From the IMG/VR virus record IMGVR_UViG_3300048636_000153, positions 1-57,504 of that record: a DNA stretch of 57,504 nt. One strand, 5' to 3'. The stretch is from a virus (Duplodnaviria > Caudoviricetes). The position numbers and the translations under genes were made by a program. This document shows positions 5,524 through 57,377 of this stretch, one piece after another. The notes under the pieces were generated by a model. That model was not told the origin of the DNA. It saw only the letters and a program-made list of their open reading frames with translations, and searched no databases. Within the stretch, counting starts at the first letter, position 1, and each line of letters starts with the position of its first letter.

Positions 5524-5631
5524 GATGTATATCCTCTGTGGGGTGAGTGCTAACCACATTGTGACACACATCCTTGTTAGTGCCTAAGCGTTCAGATATT
5601 TTAACAATTTAGGCATTAGGCATTCAAGTAC

Positions 5632-5672
5632 TTGACAATTCATATGATACCTGCTAGTATTGTAAATGTCAA
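5632..5672. promoter_or_regulatory. Overlapping divergent sigma70-type promoters
   Basis: Plus strand TTGACA(5632)-17 nt-TAGTAT(5655); minus strand TTGACA(5672-5667)-17 nt-TATCAT(5649-5644). Confidence 0.75.
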
Positions 5673-5788
5673 GCGTAGTCATGTGCTTAATCACCTGAAT
5701 GCGTTAGATATATAAAAGAAAAAGCCGTGCGGCCTGGACAGCATACACGACTTTCTCTGACCAAAATAGTCGATATAAGGATACCACA

Positions 5789-6103
5789 ATGAATGCAAGA
5801 ATCTTAGTAGAGAACATCACCAACATCATCCCGCTACCAAACCAGCGCACCCAGCCTGTTTGGCAAGTTCACGAAATGCAGGACGAATACAGCGTGCTAG
5901 CGTTGTATCCCGGCGACCGCATCCGCATCCTGGAAGGCGACCGTCGCCTATACGGAACCATCCACCATGCATGGGAAAGCGTAGACGGCGTAGTCGCACA
6001 GGTCACAGTCGATAGCTGCAATGGCAAAGCGCTTCGTCAGGCATTCAACTGGACGCTATCAGCCAGCCGCATCGACGCGGTTATCATTCAGGTGGTGCGC
6101 TAA
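5789..6103 (+). CDS. Hypothetical early protein
   Basis: First gene of the rightward operon, AAGGA RBS. Confidence 0.6.
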   Translation: MNARILVENITNIIPLPNQRTQPVWQVHEMQDEYSVLALYPGDRIRILEGDRRLYGTIHHAWESVDGVVAQVTVDSCNGKALRQAFNWTLSASRIDAVIIQVVR

Positions 6104-14674: not shown

Positions 14675-15621
14675 TGTTAACTGACTTTTTACAAGCACTC
14701 TACGGCAATGCGCCGGGTGGCTATCTGGAAGTGCGCCTGATGCACGAACATAGCAATGCCATCGAAAAGAAATGGCGCGCCATGCCACTGGCTGAAATTA
14801 AGCAGGCGGGTATTGATAAGCTGTTAGCTGCCAATGAGCAGGGATGGCACGTTTACTTTCGTGTCGCACTGAGCAGTCAGAAGCGCAGTCGCAAGGCTGA
14901 CATCTCGCATATCACGGCGCTGTGGTTTGATGTGGATGCAGAGGATAGCACCGACTTCTTAGACAAGTCAGGCTTTGAGCCACACGTCCTGGTACGCTCC
15001 GGCAGTGGCTATCACGGTTACTTCCTGCTAGATGCACCGCTGGCTGTGCAAGATAACCTGCCTGCTATTGAGCGCACACTTGCAGGTATCGCAGCCTGCT
15101 ATGGTGGTGATGGCAAGGTCAAAGACGTGACGCGCATTTTAAGACTACCCGGTTTCTACAACGTCAAAGAGAAGTATGGCGATAGCAAGCCATTGTGTGA
15201 AGTGGTCTATATCGATACTGAGCCAACTAGTACAGGCATGTGCTTCCCGCCGTACCGCTTCGATGAACTGTATACAGAGTTCGCACACTACGCACAACCG
15301 GCACAGCCACACATCAAACGTGAGCTACCGAGCGTGCAATACGATGGTCAGATCGATGCCTATGTAAAAACCTATTTAGAGACAAGCATAGGGCAAGGGG
15401 AGCGCAATAGCTGGCTGTTCAACACAGCGATGCATTGCAAAGGCCTGGGTATGTCGCAGACGGAGGCTGAGACGACCTTGCTTACCAAAGCCATGAGCGA
15501 CGGCCTGACACAGACAGAGGCAGGTAAGACTATCGCCAGCGCCTACAACCGCAGCGTTGCACCTATTAGCAATAGATACCGTCGCCTGCAAAGCGTGATG
15601 GCAATGGAGGATTCAGCATGA
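14674..15621 (+). CDS. RepB-type primase (AEP-like) with PriCT-like C-terminus
   Basis: ALWFDVD, VRSGSGYHGYF, DVTRILRLPGFYNVK, GERNSWLF...TIASAY. Confidence 0.85.
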   Translation: MLTDFLQALYGNAPGGYLEVRLMHEHSNAIEKKWRAMPLAEIKQAGIDKLLAANEQGWHVYFRVALSSQKRSRKADISHITALWFDVDAEDSTDFLDKSGFEPHVLVRSGSGYHGYFLLDAPLAVQDNLPAIERTLAGIAACYGGDGKVKDVTRILRLPGFYNVKEKYGDSKPLCEVVYIDTEPTSTGMCFPPYRFDELYTEFAHYAQPAQPHIKRELPSVQYDGQIDAYVKTYLETSIGQGERNSWLFNTAMHCKGLGMSQTEAETTLLTKAMSDGLTQTEAGKTIASAYNRSVAPISNRYRRLQSVMAMEDSA

Positions 15622-17132
15622 CAGTACCCAATAGCAGCACGCCGCGCACGCCATTTAGCGAAGACAAATGGGAGAGCTTAGCGCAGGTGGTCCTGCCTGT
15701 GATCGTGGCAGAGGAAGATAAAACAGGCAAGCAAACGCACTATTACACAGGGCTATCAAGGGGCTTGCAAGCGCGCCACTTTCCACGTGGGCCATTGCGT
15801 GACATTTATGCAGCGGTGGTTGCATTGCGAACAGACAAAAAACCTGTGCATTTTACAACCCTGCTTAATGTCTTGGGCAATGATGCTTATACAGGCGACG
15901 TGCAAATGATGTTTGCTGGCTACGACCCGGCAAAGTCCAAGCTGGGCGGCAAGGTTTTTGAAGCGAACCTGGAAGAACTAAAACACATGGGCGACATGCG
16001 GATGCAGATGTACGCCTATGAGAATGCAGCACGACGCACGGCAGCCGGAGAAGATGCGGCAGAGATTACGTCAGAGGCAATGGCAACTATCGCAGGTAGC
16101 ACCGCCCACACGCTGGAAGGTGAGACGGCAGAGGAATTATCGGGCAACTTAACCGCACATCTGGAAAGCCCACCACCGCCCATGATGCTCACAGATGTCG
16201 ATGTGCTGGATCGGTGGAACGACGGTGTGACAGCGGGTGAGTTCATGAGTATTGTTGCCCCTATGAAGATGCGTAAGACAACGCTGCTACTCAATATGCT
16301 GTTAGGGCTATCGCATCGTGACATTAGTTGCGCGCTGTTCATGTTTGAGAGCAACCGAGAAGCCATTACCACGCAACTAACCCTGATGCTTGGCGTGCGC
16401 TGGCTGCATGAGCAAGGTCTGTATGACAAGTGGTGCGATGATAACCCGCGCATAAAGACACACCATGTCAGCGTGAAGCGCTTGCTTCAGATGGGCAGCA
16501 ACTATAGAAACCTGCCTGCTATCCAAAAAGAGATGATCGATGTAGGCAAACAGCAGCTTCATGGCTTTGGTAGTCGCTTGCGTATCTATGATAAGACGCG
16601 CAAAGGCGGGGCGCTGGTATCAGCACATGATTACCACCGCGTGCTGCTGTATGACATGAACCGCTATGGCACGCAGTTTGTAGGCATTGACCACTTGCAG
16701 CGGATGGGCGAAGGCACCGACTACGAGATCATGAACGTGAACGTGCCGCGCATTGAGAATGTGTGTCGTACAGAGAAGATAGCAACCTGCTTATTGTCAC
16801 AGGTCAAGACAGGCGACAGTGACAGCAGTGACAGCAAGCGCCACGATAGTGGTGCGACAGGTGGTAACAAATTAGATAGCGCAGTCGATACCATGTTGTA
16901 TGTGCGCTACAAGCAAAAGAAGCAAGCTGATTCAAACGAGCGCTATCCTGACTACATGATGACAGTCGGTGTGCAGCACAACCGTTATGGCGCAAGCAAC
17001 CGGGGCGCACAGGTCAAGATCGATCCCTGGTCAGGTGTGATGTTGAATGGTGGTAAGGCAATTGAATGGGGAGACTTGAATGATGATGTAGAGGATATGC
17101 CACAGGGTGAAATTAATATGGACTTGCTATAA
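15618..17132 (+). CDS. DnaB-like replicative helicase
   Basis: Walker A-like APMKMRKTT, FMFES, Walker B GIDHLQ, LLSQ, HNRYG. Confidence 0.75.
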   Translation: MTVPNSSTPRTPFSEDKWESLAQVVLPVIVAEEDKTGKQTHYYTGLSRGLQARHFPRGPLRDIYAAVVALRTDKKPVHFTTLLNVLGNDAYTGDVQMMFAGYDPAKSKLGGKVFEANLEELKHMGDMRMQMYAYENAARRTAAGEDAAEITSEAMATIAGSTAHTLEGETAEELSGNLTAHLESPPPPMMLTDVDVLDRWNDGVTAGEFMSIVAPMKMRKTTLLLNMLLGLSHRDISCALFMFESNREAITTQLTLMLGVRWLHEQGLYDKWCDDNPRIKTHHVSVKRLLQMGSNYRNLPAIQKEMIDVGKQQLHGFGSRLRIYDKTRKGGALVSAHDYHRVLLYDMNRYGTQFVGIDHLQRMGEGTDYEIMNVNVPRIENVCRTEKIATCLLSQVKTGDSDSSDSKRHDSGATGGNKLDSAVDTMLYVRYKQKKQADSNERYPDYMMTVGVQHNRYGASNRGAQVKIDPWSGVMLNGGKAIEWGDLNDDVEDMPQGEINMDLL

Positions 17133-17419: not shown

Positions 17420-17532
17420 GCGCGCTTGCTGCGTGTTTGTGAACCGTTAGAAGCTGGCATTAAGTTGATCTTCTAACATAGTTTAGACGTAAAGCATGGT
17501 ATAATTTAGCTATATTAATGAGGTGAATTGAC

Positions 17533-18138
17533 ATGGCAAAGTTCAACCCAAAAGACCACATGACCAACCTAAAAGGCAAAGAATACTTAGAGGTGAAGTG
17601 GCGCTTGGTCTGGTTACGTGAAGACAAACCCGCCGCTTGCATTGACACGGAACTGACGCACATCACCGATAGCGTCATTATCATGCGTGCGCGTATCAGC
17701 GTAGGTGGTCAGGTTATTGCTACGGGCTACGGCACGGCACCGCTAGCAGGTCAGGGGTCATGGCGCGGTCGTGAAGTTGAGAAGGCAGAGACAGCCGCTA
17801 TCGGGCGCGCACTAGCACATGCAGGCTACGGCACACAGTTCACAGGTGAAGACGAAGAAGACTATCTTGCTGATAGCTCGGTGCAGCGCAAGCCAAAACA
17901 GAACAATGACAAGCTACAGCGCCAACCTGATGACCTGATTGGCAAGGGCGCATGGTGGACGCGGATGCAGAACGATCGTGAAGTCACTGACCTATACAGC
18001 CACGAGAGCCACCTTATCAACGCCATTAAGAAGGTGGCGACGGACGATGGCATTGATATGGACACGGTGCCATACAGCAAGATCAAACGCATTCTTATCG
18101 ACCGCAAAGCGCTGCAAACGGGTGAGGTGGCAAGCTAA
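17533..18138 (+). CDS. Putative single-strand annealing (Rad52/Sak-like) recombination protein
   Basis: KGKEYLEVKWR...IATGYG...EKAETAAIGRALA.AGYG; next to ssb; extended -10 TGGTATAAT upstream. Confidence 0.55.
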   Translation: MAKFNPKDHMTNLKGKEYLEVKWRLVWLREDKPAACIDTELTHITDSVIIMRARISVGGQVIATGYGTAPLAGQGSWRGREVEKAETAAIGRALAHAGYGTQFTGEDEEDYLADSSVQRKPKQNNDKLQRQPDDLIGKGAWWTRMQNDREVTDLYSHESHLINAIKKVATDDGIDMDTVPYSKIKRILIDRKALQTGEVAS

Positions 18139-18932
18139 TGGCTGGTTACGAGCTAAAAGGCCGCAGTGGCGTGTATAGAGTTTTCTGTGTTGCGAATGGG
18201 CGTCATTACGTTGGTAGCACTAAAAACCTACTGAGGCGGTATCAGGACCACTTCGGCGCACTAAACAGCGGTACTCATCGCGTTGAAGACATGCAAGTTG
18301 ATTATGATTTCTACAGCGAAAGCGCCTTTCAGTTTTCAGTGTATGAATATTGTTCACAAAAGTACCTGCTGAGCCGTGAACAATATTACCTAGATACAGA
18401 CTTTGGTTTTTATAACACGTATACAACGGCTGGAAGTCCACTGGGGCATAAGCCAAGTGAGGAGACACTTAGGGCGATACGCCTAGGCCGTAAGAAATTC
18501 AAGAAACCAGTGGTCGCCATACTGCCTGAGACTGGTGAAGTTGTGGGAGAATTTGACTCGATTACGAGTGCCTCGAAGTCATTGGGCGTACATACCGGAA
18601 CTATATCCAGATTATGTAGGCAAAAGTCTGGATGGGCAAAGTTATATACATTTAGATACCTATCAGAGTGGAACCCCACTGAATTTGAAACATTCAGACG
18701 CATTACACCATCAGAATCAAGCGGTAGGGCCAAGGCGAAAAGCGTAGCACAATTTCTAAGGTTGCCTAAAGGTGGATTGATGGAATTAGCGACCTATCCA
18801 TCAATAGCATCTGCTGAGAAAACAACGGGTGTTCACAATGCGCATATTACCAAGGTATGCAAGGGTGATCGAAAAAGTGCAGGTGGTTATGTATGGCAGT
18901 TCTTAGATACCAATGAGGAGAATGCCGCATGA
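18138..18932 (+). CDS. GIY-YIG homing endonuclease with NUMOD1-like repeats
   Basis: SGVYRV....HYVGST.NL..R...H, REQYYLD; two repeats FDSITSASKSLGV and YPSIASAEKTTGV...SAGGYVW. Confidence 0.85.
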   Translation: MAGYELKGRSGVYRVFCVANGRHYVGSTKNLLRRYQDHFGALNSGTHRVEDMQVDYDFYSESAFQFSVYEYCSQKYLLSREQYYLDTDFGFYNTYTTAGSPLGHKPSEETLRAIRLGRKKFKKPVVAILPETGEVVGEFDSITSASKSLGVHTGTISRLCRQKSGWAKLYTFRYLSEWNPTEFETFRRITPSESSGRAKAKSVAQFLRLPKGGLMELATYPSIASAEKTTGVHNAHITKVCKGDRKSAGGYVWQFLDTNEENAA

Positions 18933-20384: not shown

Positions 20385-20754
20385 CCTGATAGCCGTCACC
20401 CGCGCGCAAATGATCGACTGGTTGCAATGGCATGTGGAAGCCTGCGCGTTCTACGCAAGCATATACACGCGTGGCAAACGGAGCGAGGCGGACCTGTCGG
20501 ATAAGGTGCTGGAAGGCAAGCGGCAGAATGAGCACACGCAGTACATGTATTCACGCTGTCTGGCTGTGCTGCAAGGCTATATGGATGCTGACGAGTATGA
20601 CGACATATGGCTAGAGTACGTGCTAGGCCATACGGCAGCAACGCTTAAGTATGGGCATGGGCGGCACGCAGTCGGGGACGCGGTGAAGATGCGGGTGACG
20701 AAGTTGCGGAATGCGCGGATTGCTGCGTACAAGCAGGCACAGGCGGCGGCTTAG
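20374..20754 (+). CDS. Hypothetical protein
   Basis: Start reassigned to ATG 20374; the stop codon forms the start of site A. Confidence 0.55.
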   Translation: MASSLIAVTRAQMIDWLQWHVEACAFYASIYTRGKRSEADLSDKVLEGKRQNEHTQYMYSRCLAVLQGYMDADEYDDIWLEYVLGHTAATLKYGHGRHAVGDAVKMRVTKLRNARIAAYKQAQAAA

Positions 20755-20779
20755 CCTCATGAGAATGTTTATGTGGTAT
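20752..20779 (+). other. Xer/dif-like site A
   Basis: TAGCCTCATGA-GAATGT-TTATGTGGTAT. Confidence 0.6.
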
Positions 20780-20798
20780 AGGGAGTAGGACTTACGAG

Positions 20799-21329
20799 AT
20801 GGGTACGCAGAAGTGGAGAAGGGCGAACATGGAAATCTGCACGATCACAATGATCGAAGTAATGCAGCGCTTGCGTGCAAGCCGGGACGCAGGGCAGCCA
20901 TTCACTTATCTTGACGATGTGCATGGGCGTACTATCTGCTCTCTAATTATGCGTGACTGGATCGTACGCAGCATTGCGCCTAAAGGTGAAGATCGACCAC
21001 GCTACAGCCTCACTGGGCGCGGGTCGAAAGCGCTACAAGTTTATGAGATACCATCAATAGAATACAACGAGCGACGGTTCGATGGCATTTGTAGTCGTTG
21101 TTGCGAGCAACCATTAGGTCAATGGACAACTGGAAGAAAAAAACCATACTGCAATGAATGTATGCGAAAAGTCGCTAATCGTAAGTATGCTTTATTTGGT
21201 CGTCAGACAAAGTTACGCATCTGTCCTGATTGCAATAAGCGCCAAGTGCATATCACAGCGTCAGGCCACATTCGTGGCTACTGTAGAGAATGCGAGCGTG
21301 AGCGGTCAAAAGAGTGGCGTTCCAATTAG
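20799..21329 (+). CDS. Cassette 1: wHTH-like plus Cys-rich (Zn-finger) protein
   Basis: YSLTGRG..AL, then four CxxC motifs. Confidence 0.6.
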   Translation: MGTQKWRRANMEICTITMIEVMQRLRASRDAGQPFTYLDDVHGRTICSLIMRDWIVRSIAPKGEDRPRYSLTGRGSKALQVYEIPSIEYNERRFDGICSRCCEQPLGQWTTGRKKPYCNECMRKVANRKYALFGRQTKLRICPDCNKRQVHITASGHIRGYCRECERERSKEWRSN

Positions 21330-21332
21330 CTA

Positions 21333-21360
21333 TTGCCCGATAACCGTCATTCTGTTCTAT
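21333..21360 (+). other. Xer/dif-like site B
   Basis: TTGCCCGATAA-CCGTCA-TTCTGTTCTAT. Confidence 0.65.
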
Positions 21361-21371
21361 AGGGGTGAGAC

Positions 21372-21674
21372 ATGTTACTAGATGTGAATTATGTACCTGA
21401 AGATGAATATGCCGAAGGACGCTCAGTTCCGGCGCGTATTGAGATCACAATACCAAACAATGACCCGTATTCTGAGACAGGCTTGATGCAATTAGGCATC
21501 AGCATCGAACAAGCGAGGACCTTGCAGGATGCGCTGGAATCTGCGCTGGATGCTTATATGGTTGATGCCACATACTATCCAAACGACTGTGAATACTGCA
21601 AGGACAAGGGCGAGATTGTTGACACGGACACAGGCGAAAAACGTGCTTGCAACCACTGCAATCCAGGCTACTGA
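21372..21674 (+). CDS. Cassette 2, gene 1: small protein with C-terminal CxxC...CxxC
   Basis: CEYCKDKG...CNHC. Confidence 0.6.
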   Translation: MLLDVNYVPEDEYAEGRSVPARIEITIPNNDPYSETGLMQLGISIEQARTLQDALESALDAYMVDATYYPNDCEYCKDKGEIVDTDTGEKRACNHCNPGY

Positions 21675-21690
21675 GAGGGAGCGTTACGAG

Positions 21691-22128
21691 ATGGATGACA
21701 TAGAAGTAGATGATAAGTTCTCCGATATGCAGCGCTGGCTAGATGAGCATGAGGCGGAGTTGCCAATGCCGTACTGGTTGATTGGGGATCGTGGGGGAAT
21801 GGAATACCTTACGCTATGCTTCGACTGCGTGAAGAAGCTTGCGCCTGACGCGGACGACTATGGAGACGATTACGACGGTGGATTTGATTCAGAGCATGAT
21901 GGCTCAGAGCAGTGCTACGAATGCAACCGCATCCTAAGCTACACCTTGACAGATTATGGTGTAGAGAATGAGTTATACAAGCTTTGCGAGGCCGGTGTGA
22001 CAGCAGATGAATTGCAGAATGGCGTGACATGCTTCGAGCTTGCGCGCATTGCTCATGGCGTCTATACCGACGAGCAGAAGCGCCAATTTGTGAATGCCAT
22101 GAGCGCAGCCTTTGAAGCTATCGCCTGA
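21691..22128 (+). CDS. Cassette 2, gene 2: acidic Zn-binding hypothetical protein
   Basis: Start reassigned to ATG 21691 (GGGAG RBS); CFDC and CYEC. Confidence 0.6.
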   Translation: MDDIEVDDKFSDMQRWLDEHEAELPMPYWLIGDRGGMEYLTLCFDCVKKLAPDADDYGDDYDGGFDSEHDGSEQCYECNRILSYTLTDYGVENELYKLCEAGVTADELQNGVTCFELARIAHGVYTDEQKRQFVNAMSAAFEAIA

Positions 22129-22149
22129 TAAGAAGCTATCGCCTGATAA
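22114..22149 (+). repeat. 18-bp tandem duplication containing the left arm of site C
   Basis: GAAGCTATCGCCTGATAA twice. Confidence 0.9.
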
Positions 22150-22166
22150 GCCATTTTATATTCGAT
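22139..22166 (+). other. Xer/dif-like site C
   Basis: TCGCCTGATAA-GCCATT-TTATATTCGAT. Confidence 0.7.
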
Positions 22167-22187
22167 AGAAGTTGGAGGTATTACGAA

Positions 22188-22484
22188 ATGACACAGAGAG
22201 AACTAGAAGACTTAGGGTACGTGTTTGATCTTCGCGCTTTGGATTCATCGCGTTGGCTAAGGGTTACAGCGCCTGATGGTTGGACATATGAAAATGTACC
22301 ATTCAGTAACGTATACGAGGCTGCCACCAAGCACTTTGAACAGATGTCGATGAATAAGGCGATGCTTGCCGATATGAGGCTCATTGTGAAGCAGGCAGAG
22401 CTTGGCTTAGAAAAACGCATTCCGGCATCACAAGCGCTGGCGGCTGTTCGTGGTCTTGCAAAAGAGTATGCTACTGACGTTTAA
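22188..22484 (+). CDS. Cassette 3: small protein, paralog of 19646 and 56553
   Basis: TQRELEDLGYVF...WLRVTAPDGW...AATKHFEQ; GGAGG RBS. Confidence 0.65.
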   Translation: MTQRELEDLGYVFDLRALDSSRWLRVTAPDGWTYENVPFSNVYEAATKHFEQMSMNKAMLADMRLIVKQAELGLEKRIPASQALAAVRGLAKEYATDV

Positions 22485-22509
22485 TTTCGTAATTTACTGT
22501 ATAAGCTAT
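22482..22509 (+). other. Xer/dif-like site D (degenerate)
   Basis: TAATTTCGTAA-TTTACT-GTATAAGCTAT; spacer and right arm nearly match site E. Confidence 0.55.
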
Positions 22510-22599
22510 GGGGAGAAAAGCAATGGACAGCTATGAGATAATAATACCTCACACCGAGAATGACGAGACCACTTCATGTGAAGCGTTTTCGGACGTGTC

Positions 22600-22711
22600 G
22601 TTTCAGTACTCTGTTCGAGTCGATCTTCTTTGAAGCAGGCCAACCGTATATACTGGATCAGGATCATAAAGCGCGTTTCAGTACTCTGTTCGAGTCGATC
22701 TTCTTTGAAGC
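22600..22711. CRISPR. Cas-less CRISPR mini-array: two identical 37-bp repeats and one 38-bp spacer (cassette 4)
   Basis: GTTTCAGTACTCTGTTCGAGTCGATCTTCTTTGAAGC at 22600-22636 and 22675-22711; spacer 22637-22674; on the minus strand the repeat has an ACTC/GAGT hairpin followed by the 8-nt tag ACTGAAAC. Confidence 0.85.
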
Positions 22712-22755
22712 GTATCCGACGTGCTGGCTGGTCAGTATTTATCAAGCCGGACGCT

Positions 22756-22783
22756 TAACCCAATAAGTTACTTTATAAGCTAG
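22756..22783 (+). other. Xer/dif-like site E
   Basis: TAACCCAATAA-GTTACT-TTATAAGCTAG. Confidence 0.65.
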
Positions 22784-22795
22784 AGGGATTTAACC

Positions 22796-23152
22796 ATGAC
22801 AGAAGCACAAGCATTAGCGAAGTGGATATTTGAGCAGTATGGCATTGGGGCGTTGGGCAAAGCGCGTCGATTTGCATCAGAGAAACGCACAGACGTAAAT
22901 GGACCATCAATATTGTTTGTTGATGAGCAGGATGGGCCAGGGCGAAACGGGTTTATCTATGACCGAACCGGCAAGCCAGACGAGCTTAAGCAAGCTGTAA
23001 ACAACTTAGCAGCAATGCCGGCATTCAATCGTGATGTGATCGATGAGAAGTTTATGATGTTTGTTGCGACGCTGCACTCTGAGAATCCGCTCATGACGCT
23101 GGATGAAGTGTTCGAGCGCTGGCAGGCGAAGTTTGCGGACAAGAAGGCATAA
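22796..23152 (+). CDS. Cassette 5, gene 1: hypothetical protein
   Basis: GAGGG RBS immediately after site E. Confidence 0.6.
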   Translation: MTEAQALAKWIFEQYGIGALGKARRFASEKRTDVNGPSILFVDEQDGPGRNGFIYDRTGKPDELKQAVNNLAAMPAFNRDVIDEKFMMFVATLHSENPLMTLDEVFERWQAKFADKKA

Positions 23153-23158
23153 TGCGAT

Positions 23159-23728
23159 ATGGAATCAGCACGCTATTGGTATCAGGTGAAGAAAACAGAT
23201 GTGAGAGCGCGATTGCTGGCAGATCGTCACTATTCACGCCAGACGATAGGGCATCCTGAGTTTTGCGCGCCAGGGCACAACATCGTGCTGATAATTCCGC
23301 GTGGCTGTGCAGCTGCTGCGGTGTGGGTGTCACAGCGACCAGCACCGGGCAACGATCTAGATGTGCGTAAAGATGGCTTTGAATACTGGAATAATGGCAT
23401 CTTCCGCAATGAACAGTCAGGCATACCGAGCAGCGTTCTCATCAAAGAAGCGTTACAAATCACAGCGGCGCTTTGGGGTGATAAACTTCCAGCAGATGGT
23501 ATGCATTCGTTTGTTGATCCTGAAAAGGTCGCAGGGGTTAAAGTGCGTGGTCGACTGGTGCATGGTTGGGTATTTCAAAAAGCAGGCTTCACATTGCATG
23601 ACGAAATAACCAAAGAGCGTAATTTACTCAGATGGATATACAGTGCTGAGAAGCTGCGCCAGATTAAGCCACTACTGCCACGCAAAGAACAATTAGGGTT
23701 ATTCACGGGTAATGAAGCTATTGCCTAA
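23159..23728 (+). CDS. Cassette 5, gene 2: possible Mom/GNAT-like DNA-modification protein
   Basis: LADRHYSRQ...IFRNE...SS.LI..A...SFVDP.KV...GW.F.KAGF; C-terminal QLGLF; family recalled by eye. Confidence 0.45.
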   Translation: MESARYWYQVKKTDVRARLLADRHYSRQTIGHPEFCAPGHNIVLIIPRGCAAAAVWVSQRPAPGNDLDVRKDGFEYWNNGIFRNEQSGIPSSVLIKEALQITAALWGDKLPADGMHSFVDPEKVAGVKVRGRLVHGWVFQKAGFTLHDEITKERNLLRWIYSAEKLRQIKPLLPRKEQLGLFTGNEAIA

Positions 23729-23748
23729 GAACAGCCTTTATGTAGTGA
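23721..23748 (+). other. Xer/dif-like site F
   Basis: TTGCCTAAGAA-CAGCCT-TTATGTAGTGA. Confidence 0.7.
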
Positions 23749-23763
23749 GTTTAGGAGAACCTT

Positions 23764-24327
23764 ATGTCTGAACACAAAAAGACAGATTATACGTCAACAG
23801 CATCAAACACCCCCTTGAGTCAGATGGATCGCAATGTGCTTGATGAGATGCTTGATATGCTCCGCAACTATCAAGACCCGCTTGAGGAATTGGGTATTCC
23901 GAAACATGCACAAGCATTTTGTAATCCAAACACTGCCAAAATCCTTGTAGATGAAAGAGTTGGCGGGGTGGGGCGTCCTTTGTTTGTGGTTGATAATGTG
24001 CCGGATGGTGTTTTTTACACAAGGCCGATGTCGCAGACACAGATGATTAAATCGCAAATTATGGTTCGTACTGAACTTGCCGAGCGGATGCGTGCGCATA
24101 TCGATAGCAGCATGTTATGGGGGCGCTTCAGTCGATATGTGTCGCACGCTGAATACTCAATTCCTGGGTATACATCACGGCCTGTAGAACCCAAGTATCC
24201 AGAGGATTGGCGCGATGATCCAGAGAAACGCTGGAAGTACCAGAAAAGGGTTATGGGTGCCTTCGTCATGGCTCCGGTTCACCTGGTAACAGCGCTGTTT
24301 GGCGCTGTAAAACGTTCTGCCCCATAA
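23764..24327 (+). CDS. Cassette 6: hypothetical protein
   Basis: AGGAG RBS; the stop codon is the TAA of the site G arm. Confidence 0.6.
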   Translation: MSEHKKTDYTSTASNTPLSQMDRNVLDEMLDMLRNYQDPLEELGIPKHAQAFCNPNTAKILVDERVGGVGRPLFVVDNVPDGVFYTRPMSQTQMIKSQIMVRTELAERMRAHIDSSMLWGRFSRYVSHAEYSIPGYTSRPVEPKYPEDWRDDPEKRWKYQKRVMGAFVMAPVHLVTALFGAVKRSAP

Positions 24328-24344
24328 CGGATTTTATGCAGGAG
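24317..24344 (+). other. Xer/dif-like site G
   Basis: CTGCCCCATAA-CGGATT-TTATGCAGGAG. Confidence 0.7.
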
Positions 24345-24353
24345 GTCATACCG

Positions 24354-24572
24354 ATGGACGACAAATTGAGACAGGTCATGTTTTGCCGGGTATGCGGTGA
24401 GCCAAAGATGCATACCCGGCTTGATGGCTATCGCTGCCATAGACCACGCCACCACGACATTGAGCGAGATATACAGGCGCGCGCCATTGACATTGCGGTC
24501 AAAAGCCACCGCGATCTAGATGAAATACTAGACGAATTGTGGGAACAGTACCACAAAGAGCGAGGAGGGTAG
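24354..24572 (+). CDS. Cassette 7, gene 1: small Zn-finger-like protein
   Basis: FCRVCG...H...C; GGAGG RBS overlaps the site G arm. Confidence 0.55.
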   Translation: MDDKLRQVMFCRVCGEPKMHTRLDGYRCHRPRHHDIERDIQARAIDIAVKSHRDLDEILDELWEQYHKERGG

Positions 24573-24578
24573 GGCGAG

Positions 24579-24785
24579 ATGAGTATGAAATGCACACTAT
24601 GCGGTGAGACAATTGATCCTGAGCATCCGCTGACCGTGAGGGGCGTGAACCCTGAGACCAACCGCAAGGGCTGGATGCATGGCTATTGCTTTGTTCAGGC
24701 TCTTGACGAGCTGCGCTCCATGCCTAGCGACTCACCAGCATTTGTAAACCGATGGGATGAATACGAGACAAAGTATCTGAGGTAA
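24579..24785 (+). CDS. Cassette 7, gene 2: small Zn-finger-like protein
   Basis: CTLCG...HGYC. Confidence 0.55.
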   Translation: MSMKCTLCGETIDPEHPLTVRGVNPETNRKGWMHGYCFVQALDELRSMPSDSPAFVNRWDEYETKYLR

Positions 24786-24798
24786 GGAGTAGGGCGAG

Positions 24799-25032
24799 AT
24801 GGTACGGTTAGCAGTATATCAACAAACACCTGTGACAATAACCAAAGGCATGATTAATCATGCAATGTTTCATCGGGTGTGGTGGCCTGGGGATCGAGGA
24901 CGCGCTTACTGGTCAGTAGAGACTGGCTGGATTGTGCGCGCAAAAGGCTTTACAGCGCCAATGCCATACGAGCTGGTGCAAGAGAGTGTATCGCTTATGG
25001 AAATTGACCGACTGATACGCTCTACCTCGTAA
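24799..25032 (+). CDS. Cassette 7, gene 3: hypothetical protein
   Basis: AAGGAG RBS; the stop codon is the TAA of the site H arm. Confidence 0.5.
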   Translation: MVRLAVYQQTPVTITKGMINHAMFHRVWWPGDRGRAYWSVETGWIVRAKGFTAPMPYELVQESVSLMEIDRLIRSTS

Positions 25033-25049
25033 AGGTTTTTGTGCTGCTT
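25022..25049 (+). other. Xer/dif-like site H (degenerate)
   Basis: CTACCTCGTAA-AGGTTT-TTGTGCTGCTT. Confidence 0.5.
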
Positions 25050-25146: not shown

Positions 25147-25258
25147 AGAACATGTGTTTCTAATGTAGTATAATAGAGGGTGAGATAGGGTCGCTCCTGA
25201 TAAGGCGTGGAAGTCCAACACGCTTTCTCACCCTTACATAATTGGACTTAGCGTAAGG
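25147..25258 (+). promoter_or_regulatory. SOS-like box, -10 element and structured 5' leader of the nuclease gene
   Basis: AGAAC-ATGT-GTTTC (25147), TATAAT (25169), stem AGGGTGAGA/TCTCACCCT enclosing two hairpins. Confidence 0.5.
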
Positions 25259-25266
25259 ACAGCGCT

Positions 25267-26314: not shown

Positions 26315-26455
26315 GCAGCCTAACCCACCTGGGCGGCTTCGGTCGCCCTATCTGCCCTATCCTCTGCAAAACTATAACAATATTCCAACGCGCCATAGCA
26401 AATGTGTGCTACAATGTATGTATATTAATGCGAGCATAGCACAGGAATTAATGCG

Positions 26456-28292: not shown

Positions 28293-29539
28293 GTCCATCC
28301 TGGTACGCCTCGCCAGCAGGATCGGACCTAGCTCCTGGCTCAAAAACACTGCCTATGTCGATAGAGGCAGCACTGACATCAACGAAAGTACAACCAGGAC
28401 ACGAGCTGTATCTTCGTGGTGGTGTGTATGAGGTTGATAGCAATTTTATCAATGCGACGATTGCTGGCAGCGAAGGCCAGCAAAGTACAGTTCGTAATTA
28501 TCCTGGCGAAATAGCTTATTTGCGTTTTGGAGTCTACCAACAAGGCGCGCATGTACGCTGGATGAGCAGTGATTATGGCCTCGTCTTCCAGAGTATTGTG
28601 ACAGACCGAGAGTTTACGTCTGCGCCACACGCAGGTATCGATATTCAAGCAGATGACGTTGACCTGATTAATATCAGGTACGATAACGTGCTGAGCACCG
28701 CTATCACCGCGCACAATAATGCACGTCGCAGGTATTTATATGGCAATATCATCTTCAATAATGGCTATGTTAATTCCAGCACACAAAACCTGCATGGCCC
28801 CGGCATCTACACCAGCAATGAAGATGATGCCATTGACATCACTATCGAAAATACTATTGTCTTAAACTCGTTCCGTAATGCCTTCCAGATTGGCAGCGGT
28901 AACGGTTTAGATGAGGCGCACAATTTCACCATTAAGGATGTCATTACCGCAGGTCCGGGGTTTTATTCAGGCTCGTCACCTGTTGATGACCTACTCATTG
29001 ACCGCCTGTGGTCGCTCATTTTCCATCCACGTATTGGCATAGACGAGTCTACCAGCGGATCGATGGAGATGCGTAACAGCCTGATCGACTCGTCAGCATG
29101 GCCTTATGGCACACCACTGGCATTTCAGATCGAAAACTACCTCAGCGTTAATGTTCATGACAACGAGTTCACGACTGACAATTACTCGCTGGTCGAGCGC
29201 GACGGTGGCACGTATAACATCCAGAGCATCACACCAGTTACAGGCCAGCACACGCTAGTGATACCAAACATCTATGCGCCTGGATTCGCAACGATAGCAG
29301 TGTTCGATTTTGACGACACTGGCAGTGTCGCAGTGGACGTATCTGCACTAGCTAGCAGTGGTACGCTGAGGCTGCGTAATCTTATGTTGTGGAGCGAATA
29401 CGTCGACCTGCCTATCAACAATGGTGAGATCACAATCGACATGACCATCTGGACGACTCCCGCACCAAATGGATTTGAGGAGCCATTGCAGATCGTATTT
29501 AGTGCGCGCTTTGGTGTGTGGATCGCAAAGTTGCTGTAG
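28286..29539 (+). CDS. Right-handed beta-helix (depolymerase-like) protein, probably reached by -1 frameshift from 27267
   Basis: The frame is open upstream of ATG 28355 and gives WYASPAGSDLAPGSKTLP-MSIEAAL...PGHELYLRGGVY, a typical beta-helix N-cap; Asn/Ile-rich repeats. Confidence 0.65.
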   Translation, partial: YVGPSWYASPAGSDLAPGSKTLPMSIEAALTSTKVQPGHELYLRGGVYEVDSNFINATIAGSEGQQSTVRNYPGEIAYLRFGVYQQGAHVRWMSSDYGLVFQSIVTDREFTSAPHAGIDIQADDVDLINIRYDNVLSTAITAHNNARRRYLYGNIIFNNGYVNSSTQNLHGPGIYTSNEDDAIDITIENTIVLNSFRNAFQIGSGNGLDEAHNFTIKDVITAGPGFYSGSSPVDDLLIDRLWSLIFHPRIGIDESTSGSMEMRNSLIDSSAWPYGTPLAFQIENYLSVNVHDNEFTTDNYSLVERDGGTYNIQSITPVTGQHTLVIPNIYAPGFATIAVFDFDDTGSVAVDVSALASSGTLRLRNLMLWSEYVDLPINNGEITIDMTIWTTPAPNGFEEPLQIVFSARFGVWIAKLL

Positions 29540-29650
29540 CACATAATGACGCTTACCACGCACAGAGGCCAACCAAGCACCCCATGCCGCCTGCGCTGCT
29601 AGCTAGCGCGGGATAGCGATACCGCAAATAAGCACAGGAACCTCATACAA

Positions 29651-30331
29651 GTGCCACTACCAAACATTACACAATGCAATGCAACAGCTAAATCGACAGG
29701 CAAACAATGCGAAAACCCGGCTGTAGATGGCAGTAGTAAGTGCCGCGTGCATGGTGGTAAAACGCCAAGGGGTGCCGACTCCCCCAACTTCAAGCATGGG
29801 CGCTATTCCAAACACATGCCGGAGGCACTACTTAGTGCTTACAAAGATGCACAGACAGACCCTGAACTACTCAGTGTGCGGCAGGACATTGCGCTTACTG
29901 ACGCCATTATTAGTAGCTTGCTTCCGAACTTGGACACAGGCGAGAGTGGTAAGGCATGGTCAGATATGGCGAAGATCGTCATGAAGGCGCAAAAAGCTTA
30001 CCACGATGAGAGTATGGGCAACATGTTTGAAGCCTTCCACGATATGGAAGCAATCATTGAGAAACGCTTAAACCATTTTGCTGCACAGCGAGAAATCAGC
30101 GCGCAAATAGATCAGCGCCGCAAGCTTGTAGAGACTGAGCAGAAGATTAGCTTGCAAGGTGAACGCGCTATCAGCGCGGAGCAGTTGGTAACTTTGATGA
30201 GTGCAGTTTTATCGGTGATAAACAATGTCATTACAGACAAGCAACAACGCTATGCCATCGCTAGCCAGATTGACCAACTCATCGGCAGCGGTGCAAGCAT
30301 TGAACGTGCTGAAGAACGGCTTAGCACCTGA
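29651..30331 (+). CDS. terS: Terminase small subunit (HGGxSTG-like)
   Basis: C.A..KSTG.QC..P.......CRVHGG.TP.G....NFKHGRYS; directly upstream of TerL. Confidence 0.75.
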   Translation: MPLPNITQCNATAKSTGKQCENPAVDGSSKCRVHGGKTPRGADSPNFKHGRYSKHMPEALLSAYKDAQTDPELLSVRQDIALTDAIISSLLPNLDTGESGKAWSDMAKIVMKAQKAYHDESMGNMFEAFHDMEAIIEKRLNHFAAQREISAQIDQRRKLVETEQKISLQGERAISAEQLVTLMSAVLSVINNVITDKQQRYAIASQIDQLIGSGASIERAEERLST

Positions 30332-31760
30332 CCTTCATAGCGATTATGACTTACCAACTGACCCCTTCGATTTCGCTCAGCAGGTTATCCGTATACGCAA
30401 TAAACAGCGTCAGCTTGTCGCACTCACCTATAACAAAGCACAACGTCATTTCTTGGCTAACCGAACACAGCGCGACCTTGTTTTGAAGGCGCGGCAACTT
30501 GGCTTTAGTACAGCCATCGGTGCAGAGTTCTTTCACCAATACACGACAGACGCACGCTCTGCACTAATCATGTCCGACAAGGACGAGAACACCGCCATAC
30601 TTCGGCGCATGGTACAGGGCTTCTATGATAATTGGCCTCGTCACTTACCTAAGCCAATACGCAGCATCGATAATGCTAGCGTGGCAGTCTATCCCGGTGT
30701 GGGTAGCGAGGTGGCTATCCGAACCGCAGGCAGCAAGACGTCAGGTCGTGGTACATCATTCACCATGCTACATGGATCAGAGGTTGCCTATTGGCGCGAT
30801 GGCAAGACAACCATAGCAGGCGCGCTGCAAGCCGTGCCGGAACACCTGGATAATACTTGGGTCGTCTTCGAGTCAACAGCCAACGGCGCGCAAGGATGGT
30901 TTTATAACGAGTGCATGGCAGCGCTACAAGGCGATAGCGAATGGAAGCTGCACTTCTATGCATGGTGGTGGGATGATGACTATAAGCTGCCGCTGGAACC
31001 CGGCGAGGTCATTGAGTACACCGACGAAGAACAGGCGCTAGCCGATAAGCACGGTCTGACACCTGAGCAGATCAAATGGCGGCGTAAGAAGATACGCGAC
31101 CTTAAAGGCCGCTTTCAGCAGGAGTACCCTGAGACACCTGAAGCCGCGTTCATTCATAGTGGTCGTGTGGCCTTCCCGCGCATTCGCAGCGCATTCTACA
31201 GCACGCCGGAAGCTTCACCCATTGAGGGTGATGTGTACATTGCTGGTGCGGACTGGGGACAAGACCCCGACTTCACAGCACTCTCTATATTCAACCAAAC
31301 GAAACAGCGTGAAGTCTTTGTCGGTCGCTGGCGTCGTATGTCGCACGGGTCGATGCGCGCAGCCATTATTGAGAAATTGCAATACTGGAATGTCAAGGGC
31401 ATTGTACCGGAGCGAAACAGCCTGGGAGACTTGTCTATTGAGGACTTGTACAACGACTGTGTAACTGCGGGTCTATCTGACATTTTGATGAAGCCGTTTT
31501 GGTCAAGCAATCCAAGCAAGCACAATGTTGTGAAACTGCTTGAAAAAGGCACAGATAGCGAAGGCGTGCAATTGTTGGACGACCCTGTTGCCAACGCCGA
31601 GATTGTATCCTACCAGCAGCGACAACTAGAGTCTGGTGTGTACAAATATACTGCACCCGACACTGGCGATGAAAACAAAGATGAAGAATCGGTCGTGAAT
31701 GATGACACTGTTATCGCAAGACTGCTTGCATGGTACGGCTGCAACTACTTCTATTTCTAA
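30225..31760 (+). CDS. terL: Terminase large subunit (start may be ATG 30252)
   Basis: LKARQLGFST, HGSEVAYW, ESTANG, FQQEYP, GADWG..D, DDTVIA. Confidence 0.93.
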   Translation: MSLQTSNNAMPSLARLTNSSAAVQALNVLKNGLAPDLHSDYDLPTDPFDFAQQVIRIRNKQRQLVALTYNKAQRHFLANRTQRDLVLKARQLGFSTAIGAEFFHQYTTDARSALIMSDKDENTAILRRMVQGFYDNWPRHLPKPIRSIDNASVAVYPGVGSEVAIRTAGSKTSGRGTSFTMLHGSEVAYWRDGKTTIAGALQAVPEHLDNTWVVFESTANGAQGWFYNECMAALQGDSEWKLHFYAWWWDDDYKLPLEPGEVIEYTDEEQALADKHGLTPEQIKWRRKKIRDLKGRFQQEYPETPEAAFIHSGRVAFPRIRSAFYSTPEASPIEGDVYIAGADWGQDPDFTALSIFNQTKQREVFVGRWRRMSHGSMRAAIIEKLQYWNVKGIVPERNSLGDLSIEDLYNDCVTAGLSDILMKPFWSSNPSKHNVVKLLEKGTDSEGVQLLDDPVANAEIVSYQQRQLESGVYKYTAPDTGDENKDEESVVNDDTVIARLLAWYGCNYFYF

Positions 31761-57160: not shown

Positions 57161-57377
57161 TCATGATAAGCTATCCGGTCGATCTGATATTACTCTTGAT
57201 AATTCGCAAGTTTGTTCTACGCTATCCCAACCTGCGATATATGCTAACCTGCCCTACCGACACCCGCCCCATATGCGCGTTTTATGGCCTAAAAACGGCC
57301 TTTTTACGCGATTGCAGGGGCATCGGGCATGGTGGGGTAGGTGGCTACTTAGGCGGCCTCGTCTAGGGACGCCTCTA

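What the first reader, a model, noticed from the sequence alone, without database searches (positions are those of the whole stretch)
20752..25049. Array of gene cassettes bounded by eight co-oriented Xer/dif-like sites (candidate integron-like system in a phage)
Seen: eight 28-bp sites with 11-6-11 architecture, all in the same orientation. A 20752 TAGCCTCATGA-GAATGT-TTATGTGGTAT; B 21333 TTGCCCGATAA-CCGTCA-TTCTGTTCTAT; C 22139 TCGCCTGATAA-GCCATT-TTATATTCGAT; D 22482 TAATTTCGTAA-TTTACT-GTATAAGCTAT; E 22756 TAACCCAATAA-GTTACT-TTATAAGCTAG; F 23721 TTGCCTAAGAA-CAGCCT-TTATGTAGTGA; G 24317 CTGCCCCATAA-CGGATT-TTATGCAGGAG; H 25022 CTACCTCGTAA-AGGTTT-TTGTGCTGCTT. All sit at cargo boundaries. The upstream stop codon lies in or next to the left arm (in the duplicated arm for C). 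Where a gene follows, its ATG is 9-21 nt after the right arm. The sites define seven cassettes of 1-3 small genes or a CRISPR mini-array. Every 6-bp spacer differs. Known: this is the layout of XerC/XerD dif sites (E. coli GGTGCGCATAA-TGTATA-TTATGTTAAAT; B. subtilis ACTTCCTAGAA-TATATA-TTATGTAAACT). Plasmid pdif modules use similar sites but usually in alternating orientation. Inference: this is a tandem cassette-acquisition array run by a host Xer-type tyrosine recombinase, since none is recognisable in the genome. Differing spacers would limit excision. I do not know of a described phage system like this.
Basis: partly seen in the sequence, partly recalled or inferred. Interest (0 to 1): 0.92.

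Follow-up and report, generated by a model that had tools for sequence, protein, structure and literature searches.

The report
Repeated junction elements between phage cassettes
A 4.3-kb run of small accessory genes in an uncultured phage is punctuated by eight copies of one conserved gene-junction sequence, which behaves like a shared linker at cassette boundaries but shows none of the tested hallmarks of a Xer recombinase site.

Summary
The eight sites are in the sequence exactly as written, and they are not chance. In leave-one-out scoring, five sites reach 19-21 bits. Only 1-2 positions in about 6 million control positions score that high, and the motif occurs nowhere else in the phage as an array.

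The 11-6-11 Xer parse does not fit the conservation:
- The conserved block runs 6 nt further left, into the last codons of unrelated genes.
- The last "spacer" base is T in 7 of 8 sites.
- The outer "XerD" half-arm is not conserved.
- Site H has a left half only.
- Left and right halves assort independently.

Two junctions coincide with changed gene ends relative to homologues. One gene is cut about 50 aa short at B, and one is extended by 6-7 aa at F.

Several searches for a recombination system came back empty. The phage record holds no tyrosine or serine recombinase. Three DNA metagenome runs show no deletion or joint at any site. Five Anaerolineae genomes hold no dif-like match.

My reading is that these are composite junction linkers, with a gene-3' module and a gene-5' module. 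They most resemble T4 PeSLs or "boundary sequences", but they lack a sigma-70 promoter and a stem-loop. Mechanism remains inferred, because closer relatives exist but could not be fetched.

The parts
20746..20782 (+). Weak left module, strong right module. The stop of g20266 is at site positions 1-3, and the SD and ATG (20799) follow.
   Evidence: (leave-one-out: left 10.3, right 13.0)
21327..21363 (+). Junction B (28-mer 21333-21360). The left module AGCTATTGCCCGATAA holds the TAG stop that ends g20799.
22114..22169 (+). Junction C (28-mer 22139-22166), with an exact tandem duplicate of the 18-bp left module (22114-22131 and 22132-22149). The first copy encodes the last residues EAIA and the stop of g21691.
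22476..22514 (+). Junction D (28-mer 22482-22509). It is 74% identical to E over 39 bp, and its spacer differs from E's at 1 of 6 bases.
22750..22788 (+). Junction E (28-mer 22756-22783).
23715..23751 (+). Junction F (28-mer 23721-23748). The left module encodes the C-terminal extension ...NEAIA* of g23159, which the L002 homologue lacks.
24311..24347 (+). Junction G (28-mer 24317-24344). It has the best dyad (CATAA/TTATG). The left module encodes ...RSAP* of g23764, and the right arm runs straight into the SD AGGAGG.
25016..25049 (+). Junction H. Only the left module (25016-25032, encoding ...RSTS* of g24799) is present. There is no conserved right module and no gene directly downstream.
   Evidence: (leave-one-out: left 12.9, right 3.2)
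20799..21329 (+). Unit A-B: g20799, 176 aa. It has an N-terminal MarR/PadR-like winged helix followed by CxxC zinc-ribbon repeats. It lacks about 50 C-terminal residues that its three homologues have.
21372..22128 (+). Unit B-C: two ORFs, 21372-21674 (100 aa) and 21691-22128 (145 aa, CxxC motifs). Neither has a Pfam family.
22188..22484 (+). Unit C-D: ORF of 98 aa with no family.
22599..22711 (.). Unit D-E: two exact 38-bp direct repeats (22599-22636 and 22674-22711) around a 37-bp spacer. The shape is CRISPR-like, but no match to any repeat family, host array or target was found.
22796..23728 (+). Unit E-F: ORFs 22796-23152 (118 aa) and 23159-23728 (189 aa, phrog_24928). The second has a 59%-identical homologue in L002.
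23764..24327 (+). Unit F-G: ORF of 187 aa. An 83%-identical relative, P0128, exists in a Logan contig.
24354..25032 (+). Unit G-H: three ORFs (24354-24572, 24579-24785, 24799-25032). They are joined by short SD-only gaps and have no junction element between them.

Best explanation
The eight sites are copies of one composite junction linker that separates expression units in the phage's accessory, hyperplastic region.

Each linker has two modules:
- A gene-3' module of about 17-18 nt (ACGYT or AGCTA, then T-YRCCY-N-RTAA). It supplies the last codons and the stop of whatever gene lies upstream.
- A gene-5' module (T-TTATRT, often followed by N2-3-TATA). It runs into the Shine-Dalgarno sequence and start codon of the next gene.
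- About 5 variable bases separate the two modules.

I infer two functions. First, the linker acts as a shared expression signal bound by a phage or host factor. The weak ATAA-N6-TTAT dyad fits a dimeric helix-turn-helix protein, and the first gene of the array encodes a MarR/PadR-like winged-helix protein. Second, the linkers act as patches of homology between which general or illegitimate recombination swaps, inserts and deletes gene units, as shown for T4-type PeSLs and proposed for phage "boundary sequences".

Shown here: the repeat, its confinement to the array, its two independently assorting halves, and changed gene ends at B and F. Inferred: factor binding, the expression role and recombination at the linkers.
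For: - The motif is real and confined to 20.7-25.0 kb.
- The ungapped alignment shows conservation from 6 nt left of the 28-mer through to TATAGGG on the right. The last "spacer" base is T in 7 of 8 sites.
- The left module with its 6-nt extension is the better conserved half in 6 of 8 sites. Its leave-one-out scores are 8.4-16.3, against a maximum of 12.9 elsewhere in the genome. H has only this half.
- Left-half and right-half similarities are uncorrelated over 28 pairs (Spearman -0.03).
- Unrelated proteins end in tails encoded by the module: EAIA* at C and F, RSAP*/RSTS* at G and H.
- g20799 stops inside junction B, about 50 aa before the end of its 3 homologues.
- g23159 runs 6-7 aa past the end of its L002 homologue, into junction F. 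L002 has no such motif there.
- The rest of the genome is tightly packed, with gaps of -4 to +9 nt. Within the array, the unit boundaries have 35-59 nt gaps.
- PeSLs have the same layout: upstream stop, then signal, then SD and start, sitting in front of ORFans in hyperplastic regions. They recombine with each other (PMC2839356, abstract and section 13).
- g20799 folds as a MarR/PadR-type winged helix. All listed Foldseek PDB rows are such regulators, with E from 5.5e-3 to 4e-2 (Atlas lead).
Against: - No sigma-70-type promoter coincides with any site. None of the 10 promoter-like hits in 18-28 kb falls on a site, and the count is below the shuffle mean. By eye, the sites lack TAnnnT, whereas promoter-like TGnTAnnAT boxes stand elsewhere in the phage.
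- There is no stem-loop. RNA folds have z-scores from -1.4 to +1.3.
- No recombination between linkers was observed. There are no joints or indels in 3 DNA runs, and the 2 loose ends (18975, 24069) are not at sites. Depth was only about 1-10x and the runs were laid as contigs.
- No relative with the same linkers could be examined. None of 240 distant loci holds an array.
- The Foldseek matches for g20799 are all above E = 1e-3, and the model is mediocre (pLDDT 70, pTM 0.41).
- Nothing links that protein to the sites.
Confidence: 0.45

Rival explanations
1. The sites are targets of site-specific recombination. The enzyme would be host XerC/D-type tyrosine recombinases or an unrecognised recombinase, making the array an integron-like or dif-module-like cassette store.
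For: - The sites have the 11-6-11 shape with an inner ATAA/TTAT dyad, matching 2-5 of 5 inner pairs (mean 3.5).
- All sites are in direct orientation at unit boundaries.
- The halves assort independently, as expected if cassettes carry their own ends.
- D and E flank a 274-bp unit. They are alike in both arms, and their spacers differ at 1 of 6 bases. The dif-module rules would allow excision in that case.
- The 18-bp tandem duplication at C ends exactly at the arm/spacer border.
- The phage encodes ParA and RepB-primase and no integrase. It may therefore live as a plasmid and meet host Xer.
Against: - The outer right arm is not conserved, and H has no right arm. In pdif sites the XerD arm is nearly invariant, and one changed conserved base is taken to inactivate a site (PMC13141974, passages).
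- Conservation extends 6 nt beyond the left arm and into the spacer.
- 26 of 28 spacer pairs share 3 of 6 bases or fewer.
- No tyrosine or serine recombinase was found in a six-frame search of the whole record, nor in the 87 ORFs scanned with Pfam.
- There are no joints in 3 DNA runs.
- The pattern CCYNRTAA-N6-TTATRT gives 2 hits in 1 of 5 Anaerolineae genomes, against 1 control hit.
- There is no attC-like fold.
- Genes are truncated or extended to the left of the left arm, which a crossover inside the spacer would not produce.
Confidence: 0.15
2. The sites are stoperator-like or operator sites. A phage repressor or regulator would bind each junction, oriented with transcription, to silence or time expression of the accessory units. 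Recombination would play no part.
For: - The sites are intergenic and co-oriented with transcription, and they overlap stop codons, as described for Cluster A mycobacteriophage stoperators (PMC3029335 and PMC6550527, passages).
- The phage has a lysogeny-type switch: an HTH_3 gene at 5012-5332 (-) beside a divergent region with TTGACA-17-TAGTAT. It also has ParA.
- A winged-helix gene opens the array.
Against: - Stoperators are spread over the whole genome (24-34 copies) and share their consensus with the operator at the early promoter. Here the motif is confined to 4.3 kb.
- The PWM has no hit of 7 bits or more in the switch region 5332-5789.
- This reading does not explain why the left module forms the ends of unrelated genes, or why H is half a site.
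Confidence: 0.15
3. The elements have no present function. The array grew by serial duplication of one intergenic region plus gene replacement, and the similarity is decaying common descent.
For: - Similarity is graded. B/C/F, D/E and G/H form sub-families.
- The exact tandem 18-bp duplicate at C shows that local duplication happens.
- No function could be shown.
Against: - Under pure descent, left and right halves should share one genealogy, yet they are uncorrelated.
- Conservation is concentrated at discrete columns (CC, TAA, T-TTAT) and is not uniform.
- The genes between the elements are unrelated to each other (sequences; no shared families).
Confidence: 0.15
4. The element is an RNA-level signal in a polycistronic transcript. 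It would be an endoribonuclease processing site or an A/U-rich translation enhancer placed before each SD.
For: - The right module is A/U-rich and sits directly before the SD.
- The sites are unstructured, as single-strand-specific RNases and ribosomal protein S1 prefer.
- The sites are co-oriented with the genes.
Against: - Other intergenic regions with an SD in the same phage lack the motif.
- The three genes of unit G-H do without it.
- H has no downstream gene.
- Only 5 RNA contigs from one run were laid, and they show nothing about RNA ends.
Confidence: 0.1

Closest known systems
PeSL (promoter-early stem-loop) regulatory cassettes of T4-type phages (Arbiol et al. 2010, PMC2839356; Comeau et al. 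2014, PMC4122927, search listing only)
   Same: - A repeated composite intergenic motif in a hyperplastic region of small ORFans.
- It starts at the upstream gene's stop codon and ends with the SD and start of the next gene.
- The copies flank gene units.
- In T4-type phages, recombination between copies shuffles the units and releases mini-circles.
   Different: - PeSLs contain a consensus sigma-70 promoter and a stable stem-loop terminator. Neither is present here.
- The phage is an unrelated, uncultured virus of about 57 kb, possibly temperate and plasmid-like. It has an HK97-type capsid hit and distant terminase relatives in Anaerolineae assemblies.
- Shuffling was not observed here.
pdif sites and dif modules of Acinetobacter plasmids; chromosomal dif and plasmid cer/psi Xer sites
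   Same: - A 28-bp 11-6-11 shape with an inner ATAA/TTAT dyad.
- The sites bound small accessory modules.
- The spacers are variable.
   Different: - pdif sites alternate in orientation (C and D modules) and have nearly invariant XerD arms. Here all sites are direct and the outer right arm varies.
- Here conservation spills outside the 28 bp.
- One site here is a half-site.
- No Xer link has been shown.
Integron attC cassette arrays
   Same: A tandem, co-oriented array of promoterless-looking small gene units, each ending in a related recombination-site-like element that can overlap the gene's 3' end.
   Different: - There is no integrase (PF00589 absent).
- No attI/Pc platform is recognised.
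- The elements are about 40 nt and unstructured. By recall, attC sites are imperfect-palindrome hairpins of 60-140 nt.
Stoperators of Cluster A mycobacteriophages
   Same: Asymmetric, intergenic sites oriented with transcription that often overlap stop codons, in phages some of which carry parABS in place of an integrase.
   Different: Stoperators are 13 bp, spread genome-wide (24-34 copies), and match the operator of the early lytic promoter. Here the sites are confined to one region, and the switch region holds no matching site.
Short conserved 'boundary sequences' at module junctions of lambdoid phages (cited in PMC3029335, passages)
   Same: Short conserved sequences at gene boundaries, proposed to guide homologous recombination that creates mosaics.
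   Different: Those were seen between genomes at single junctions. Here eight copies stand in tandem within one genome, and each has a two-module structure.

Membership tests
Xer/dif-type site (dif, cer/psi, pdif) | Two 11-bp arms around a 6-8-bp spacer, with the XerD-side arm strongly conserved among the sites used by one host | tested here: not met
   Right-half leave-one-out scores are 3.2-13.0. The outer 5 nt are GGTAT, TCTAT, TCGAT, GCTAT, GCTAG, AGTGA, AGGAG and TGCTT. For comparison, the XerD arms in pdif Table 1 are nearly invariant.
Xer/dif-type site (dif, cer/psi, pdif) | Inner dyad ATAA / TTAT | tested here: inconclusive
   The inner 5-nt arms pair at 2-5 of 5 positions (mean 3.5). 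All 11 pairs match at 4-8 positions. Both arms are A/T-rich and include stop codons.
Xer/dif-type site (dif, cer/psi, pdif) | Resemblance to the host's chromosomal dif | tested here: inconclusive
   The host is unknown. In 5 Anaerolineae genomes the core pattern hit twice in one genome, against 1 control hit.
Xer/dif-type site (dif, cer/psi, pdif) | Partner sites share identical or near-identical spacers, with the crossover inside the spacer | tested here: not met
   Only D/E (5 of 6) and G/H (4 of 6) are close; 26 of 28 pairs share 3 bases or fewer. No joint appears in 3 DNA runs, at low depth. The gene-end changes lie left of the left arm.
Xer/dif-type site (dif, cer/psi, pdif) | Binding and strand exchange by XerC/XerD | not testable with these tools
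   This needs EMSA and recombination assays with the host's enzymes. The phage itself encodes none.
Integron | An IntI tyrosine recombinase gene beside the array | tested here: not met
   A six-frame PF00589 search of the whole 57.5-kb record gave 0 matches at E <= 1, while the control rang in 14 of 14 genomes.
Integron | attC sites fold as single-stranded imperfect hairpins | tested here: not met
   Eight junction folds have z-scores from -1.43 to +1.31 against shuffles.
PeSL regulatory cassette | Upstream stop codon at the 5' edge and SD plus start at the 3' edge, in front of ORFans in a plastic region | tested here: met
   Of the array ORFs scanned, 9 of 9 have no Pfam family at or above its cut-off, and one matches a PHROG of unknown function.
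PeSL regulatory cassette | Consensus sigma-70 promoter | tested here: not met
   No promoter-like hit falls at any site. By eye, 7 of 8 sites lack a consistent TAnnnT hexamer.
PeSL regulatory cassette | Stable stem-loop terminator | tested here: not met
   None of the 8 terminator-like hits in 18-28 kb falls at a site.
PeSL regulatory cassette | Recombination between copies (indels between close relatives, mini-circles) | tested here: inconclusive
   The runs hold a nearly clonal population (99% identity or more), laid as low-depth contigs, with no joints. Closer relatives could not be fetched.
Stoperator system | Sites spread over the genome that share the consensus of the operator at the early lytic promoter | tested here: not met
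   The 8 sites lie within 4.3 kb, and there is no PWM hit of 7 bits or more in the switch region 5332-5789.
CRISPR mini-array (unit D-E) | Repeat belongs to a known CRISPR repeat family or matches a host array; spacer matches a target | tested here: not met
   - Rfam: no match at the gathering score or at E <= 1.
- A 25-mer and a 20-mer of the repeat were searched in genome contigs. They gave 0 hits and 1 coding-region hit.
- The repeat and the spacer both gave 0 hits in viral contigs.
- There is no array in 5 Anaerolineae genomes.
- Only the geometry (38/37/38) fits.

The most novel reading that the evidence does not exclude
The array is a true cassette-capture system in a tailed phage-plasmid. 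Each unit would be a mobile cassette ending in the left module and beginning with the right module. It would be inserted and excised at the about 5-nt variable joint by a host Xer-type or a still unrecognised recombinase. That would make this an integron-like store of accessory genes, and of a CRISPR-like mini-array, carried by a virus.
Probability: 0.12. Interest if true: 0.85.

Novelty: new variant of a known kind. Interest (0 to 1): 0.42.

Why it matters
How phages gain and reshuffle their many small accessory genes is largely unexplained outside T4-type phages. A second, unrelated linker system in an uncultured vent and marine phage would suggest that dedicated junction elements are a general device for phage gene shuffling. 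This one is bipartite, lacks a promoter and a hairpin, and supplies the 3' ends of its cargo genes. It would also give a concrete sequence to test. If instead the sites prove to be recombinase targets, this would be the first integron-like array in a tailed phage.

Tried and rejected
Looking for relatives
- blastn of 20-26 kb against 50,697 phage records gave no match.
- Single-protein locus searches with g20266, g23159 and the terminase in viral contigs found no relatives.
- Terminase-profile searches returned only distant loci: 49% identity or less in viral contigs, genome contigs and metagenome contigs. None holds the motif as an array. The apparent cluster in L175 was made of unrelated coding-strand hits.
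- The repeat finder on the 10 kb upstream of the terminase in 7 relatives showed no analogous junction family among the 5 largest families listed for each.
- The pattern GAAGCTATYGCCYRAKAA in viral contigs gave 43 single hits. None had a protein match to the window and none continued like the window's sites. Many sat in one recurring sequence that reads as coding.
- P0126 lies on a 56-kb JGI contig, but it was not found in viral contigs.

Reads and transcripts
- Runs X8, X14 and X16 (DNA) and X19 (RNA) were laid as Logan contigs at about 1-10x. They showed no joints, indels or variants at sites. This cannot exclude rare excision.
- One RNA contig from X19 starts at 24346, just after site G, with adaptor sequence at its end. 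A single fragment is not evidence of a transcript start.

Other readings tested
- A T7-like promoter reading (TATAGGGAG) was dropped, because none of the 87 ORFs scanned has an RNA polymerase family hit.
- Rfam found nothing in the window, and there are no tRNAs.

Host
- Repeat and spacer searches failed to identify a host.

Literature
- Searches for phage Xer/dif cassette arrays found only work on Xer-integrating filamentous and DJR prophages.

Not available
- Supplementary files were not consulted. Published lists of predicted dif sites by phylum would sit there and could bear on the host-dif comparison.

Full report
WHAT THE WINDOW IS
The window is a complete-looking virus record of 57,504 bp with an exact 127-bp terminal repeat and 51% G+C. 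CheckV estimates only 66% completeness.

Gene content:
- Structural genes are the large terminase (30225-31760), the portal (31786-34164) and a protein with an HK97-type capsid hit (35285-37606).
- The replication block holds an O-like initiator, a RepB-type primase, a DnaB-like helicase and SSB.
- On the minus strand are ParA (1305-2120) and an HTH_3 protein (5012-5332), beside a divergent region with TTGACA-17-TAGTAT.
- Homing-endonuclease-type genes stand at 18138 (GIY-YIG), 19938 (HNH) and 25267 (HNH/EndoVII-like).
- No tyrosine or serine recombinase is present, either in the 87 ORFs scanned with Pfam or in six-frame searches of the whole record.

Relatives and hosts:
- There is no cultivated relative.
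- The nearest terminases are 65-67% identical and occur only in Logan assemblies.
- Among genome assemblies, 7 of the 11 best loci come from Anaerolineae/Chloroflexota MAGs or strains, at about 40% identity. This is only a weak hint at the host.
- Nearly identical DNA occurs in many hydrothermal-vent runs and one marine-plankton run.

A PWM built from seven sites scores the eighth at 19.2, 20.0, 19.7, 9.4, 20.8, 14.2, 20.5 and 10.5 bits for A-H. Elsewhere in the phage the best scores are 17.4 (twice), then 13.2. Two controls set the background:
- 240 loci of distant relatives, 3.04 Mb on both strands and with some duplicates, give 2 hits at 18 bits or more, 33 at 14 or more and 320 at 10 or more.
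- 100 dinucleotide shuffles of the window give 0.04, 0.98 and 8.9 hits per genome at those same three thresholds.

Five sites are therefore far beyond chance. F is marginal but credible. D and H are at background as 28-mers. D is rescued by a 39-bp, 74% match to E, and H by its left half.

Among 37 upstream regions, the 21 within-array pairs share 18.2 of 30 letters in their best window, against 15.1-15.2 for the other 645 pairs.

The genome is otherwise tightly packed, and the 35-59-nt gaps that carry the motif stand out.

THE 11-6-11 PARSE DOES NOT FIT THE CONSERVATION
- The eight junctions align without gaps. Conservation starts 6 nt left of the 28-mer, as ACGYT in D, E, G and H and as AGCTA in B, C and F. 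It includes the last "spacer" base, which is T in 7 of 8 sites. In A-E it continues into TAT(A)GGG, which merges with the SD.
- The left module with its extension is the better conserved half in 6 of 8 sites. Its leave-one-out scores are 8.4-16.3, against a maximum of 12.9 elsewhere in the genome.
- The right module scores 3.2-13.0, and its outer five bases are not conserved. H is a left module only, and A has the weakest but one left module.
- Left-half and right-half similarities are uncorrelated over the 28 pairs (Spearman -0.03). The left sub-families are B/C/F, D/E and G/H. The right groupings, read by eye from the sequences, are A/F/G, D/E and B/C.
- The dyad is weak, with 2-5 of 5 inner pairs matching.

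THE LEFT MODULE IS THE END OF THE UPSTREAM GENE
- Unrelated proteins end in tails encoded by the module...FEAIA* (g21691, at C) and ...NEAIA* (g23159, at F) in one frame, and ...KRSAP* (g23764, at G) and ...IRSTS* (g24799, at H) in one frame. At B the same module is read in another frame and supplies a TAG.
- Three homologues of g20799 (52-59% identical) continue for about 50 residues, a further zinc-ribbon repeat, beyond the point where the window's gene stops inside junction B.
- The 59%-identical homologue of g23159 in L002 ends at ...EQLRLFA*, whereas the window's protein runs on as ...EQLGLFTGNEAIA* into junction F. L002 has no such motif downstream.
- An 83%-identical relative of g23764 ends ...AAQRS*, compared with ...AVKRSAP* in the window.
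- The g21691 homologues have the same length but different tails.
- At C the 18-bp left module is duplicated exactly in tandem.
Gene ends have therefore been joined to a resident linker. In the two clear cases the change lies to the left of the "left arm", not in the spacer.

TESTS OF THE XER/INTEGRON READING
- Published pdif sites have nearly invariant XerD arms and alternate in orientation. They recombine only when directly oriented with identical or near-identical spacers (PMC13141974, passages).
- Here the right arm varies, and 26 of 28 spacer pairs share 3 of 6 bases or fewer. Only D/E (5 of 6) would qualify.
- Three DNA runs and one RNA run were laid on 18-28 kb. All but one of the 80 contigs laid are at least 99% identical to the window. 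There are no joints and no indels, and the two loose ends, at 18975 and 24069, are not at sites. Depth was only about 1-10x and the runs were kept as contigs.
- The core pattern has no single-copy counterpart in five Anaerolineae genomes, but the host is unknown.
- The junctions do not fold: z-scores run from -1.4 to +1.3.
- Literature searches found no described Xer-bounded cassette array in a tailed phage.

TESTS OF REGULATORY READINGS
- No sigma-70-type promoter or intrinsic terminator coincides with a site. Boxes that look like extended -10 elements (TGnTAnnAT) stand upstream of 17533, 26456, 34470 and 50620 and in the switch region.
- No phage RNA polymerase or sigma factor was detected.
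- The switch region holds no copy of the motif. A stoperator system of the L5 type, which is genome-wide and shares its consensus with the operator, therefore does not fit.
- The first gene of the array, g20799, models as a winged helix followed by zinc ribbons (pLDDT 70.4). Every listed Foldseek PDB row is a MarR/PadR-type regulator, but all have E between 5.5e-3 and 4e-2. The Atlas gives the same lead at TM 0.36-0.42. This makes it a candidate binder, not a demonstrated one.

BEST READING
The sites are bipartite junction linkers of a hyperplastic accessory region. Their layout matches T4-type PeSLs: upstream stop, then signal, then SD and start, placed before ORFans (PMC2839356, abstract and section 13). 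They also recall the "boundary sequences" proposed for lambdoid mosaics (PMC3029335, passage). Unlike PeSLs, they lack a consensus promoter and a stem-loop.

I put 0.45 on this reading: a shared expression or binding signal that doubles as a homology patch for unit shuffling. The rivals are site-specific recombination at 0.15, a pure operator at 0.15, decaying duplication at 0.15 and an RNA-level signal at 0.10. Closer relatives, which exist but could not be fetched, would decide between these.

THE D-E UNIT
Two exact 38-bp repeats flank a 37-bp spacer. The reverse strand ends in ...CTGAAAC, which by recall resembles the 3' end of many CRISPR repeats. No family, host array or target was found. 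"CRISPR mini-array" therefore remains a description of shape only.

Noticed in passing
window 17470-17532 and 26395-26455: A second repeated upstream element. The regions before the genes at 17533 and 26456 share 22 of 30 letters (TGnTAyAAT...TATATTAATG). They look like extended -10 promoters with a common downstream box.
   Followed up: partly
window 25160-25266: Between junction H and the HNH-like gene there is a TATAAT box (about 25167), followed by an inverted repeat with 15-nt arms (25177-25191 / 25220-25234, 87% complementary). Its loop contains CCTGATAAG, the core of the left module of site C. It may be a leader structure or a stray half-site.
   Followed up: no
window 57285-57312 (+) and 29536-29563 (-): Two lone PWM hits of 17.4 bits outside the array. 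About 0.25 hits at 16 bits or more are expected per genome from the 3-Mb control. The first overlaps a GGCC...GGCC plus T-run that looks like a small terminator near the terminal repeat. The second lies on the opposite strand at the end of gene 28355-29539.
   Followed up: partly
window 1305-2120 (-), 5012-5789, 14674-17132: The record has ParA, a CI/Cro-type switch region, a RepB-type primase and a DnaB-like helicase, but no integrase. This gene set suggests a temperate phage maintained as a plasmid.
   Followed up: partly
window 18975: One DNA contig of run X16 departs from the window at 18975, just past the GIY-YIG endonuclease gene (18138-18932), and runs on for 255 unlike letters. This may be a presence/absence polymorphism of the homing endonuclease in the population.
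   Followed up: no
window 22523-22633: A 36-codon ORF with a good SD starts right after junction D and reads into the first 38-bp repeat. It may be the stump of a displaced gene or may be fortuitous.
   Followed up: no
L087 8642-8689 and 9797-9844: A distant relative on an Anaerolineae MAG contig carries two 85%-identical 48-bp copies of an element containing TTGACA and TATAAT. Repeated upstream elements therefore occur in this wider phage group, but with a different sequence.
   Followed up: no
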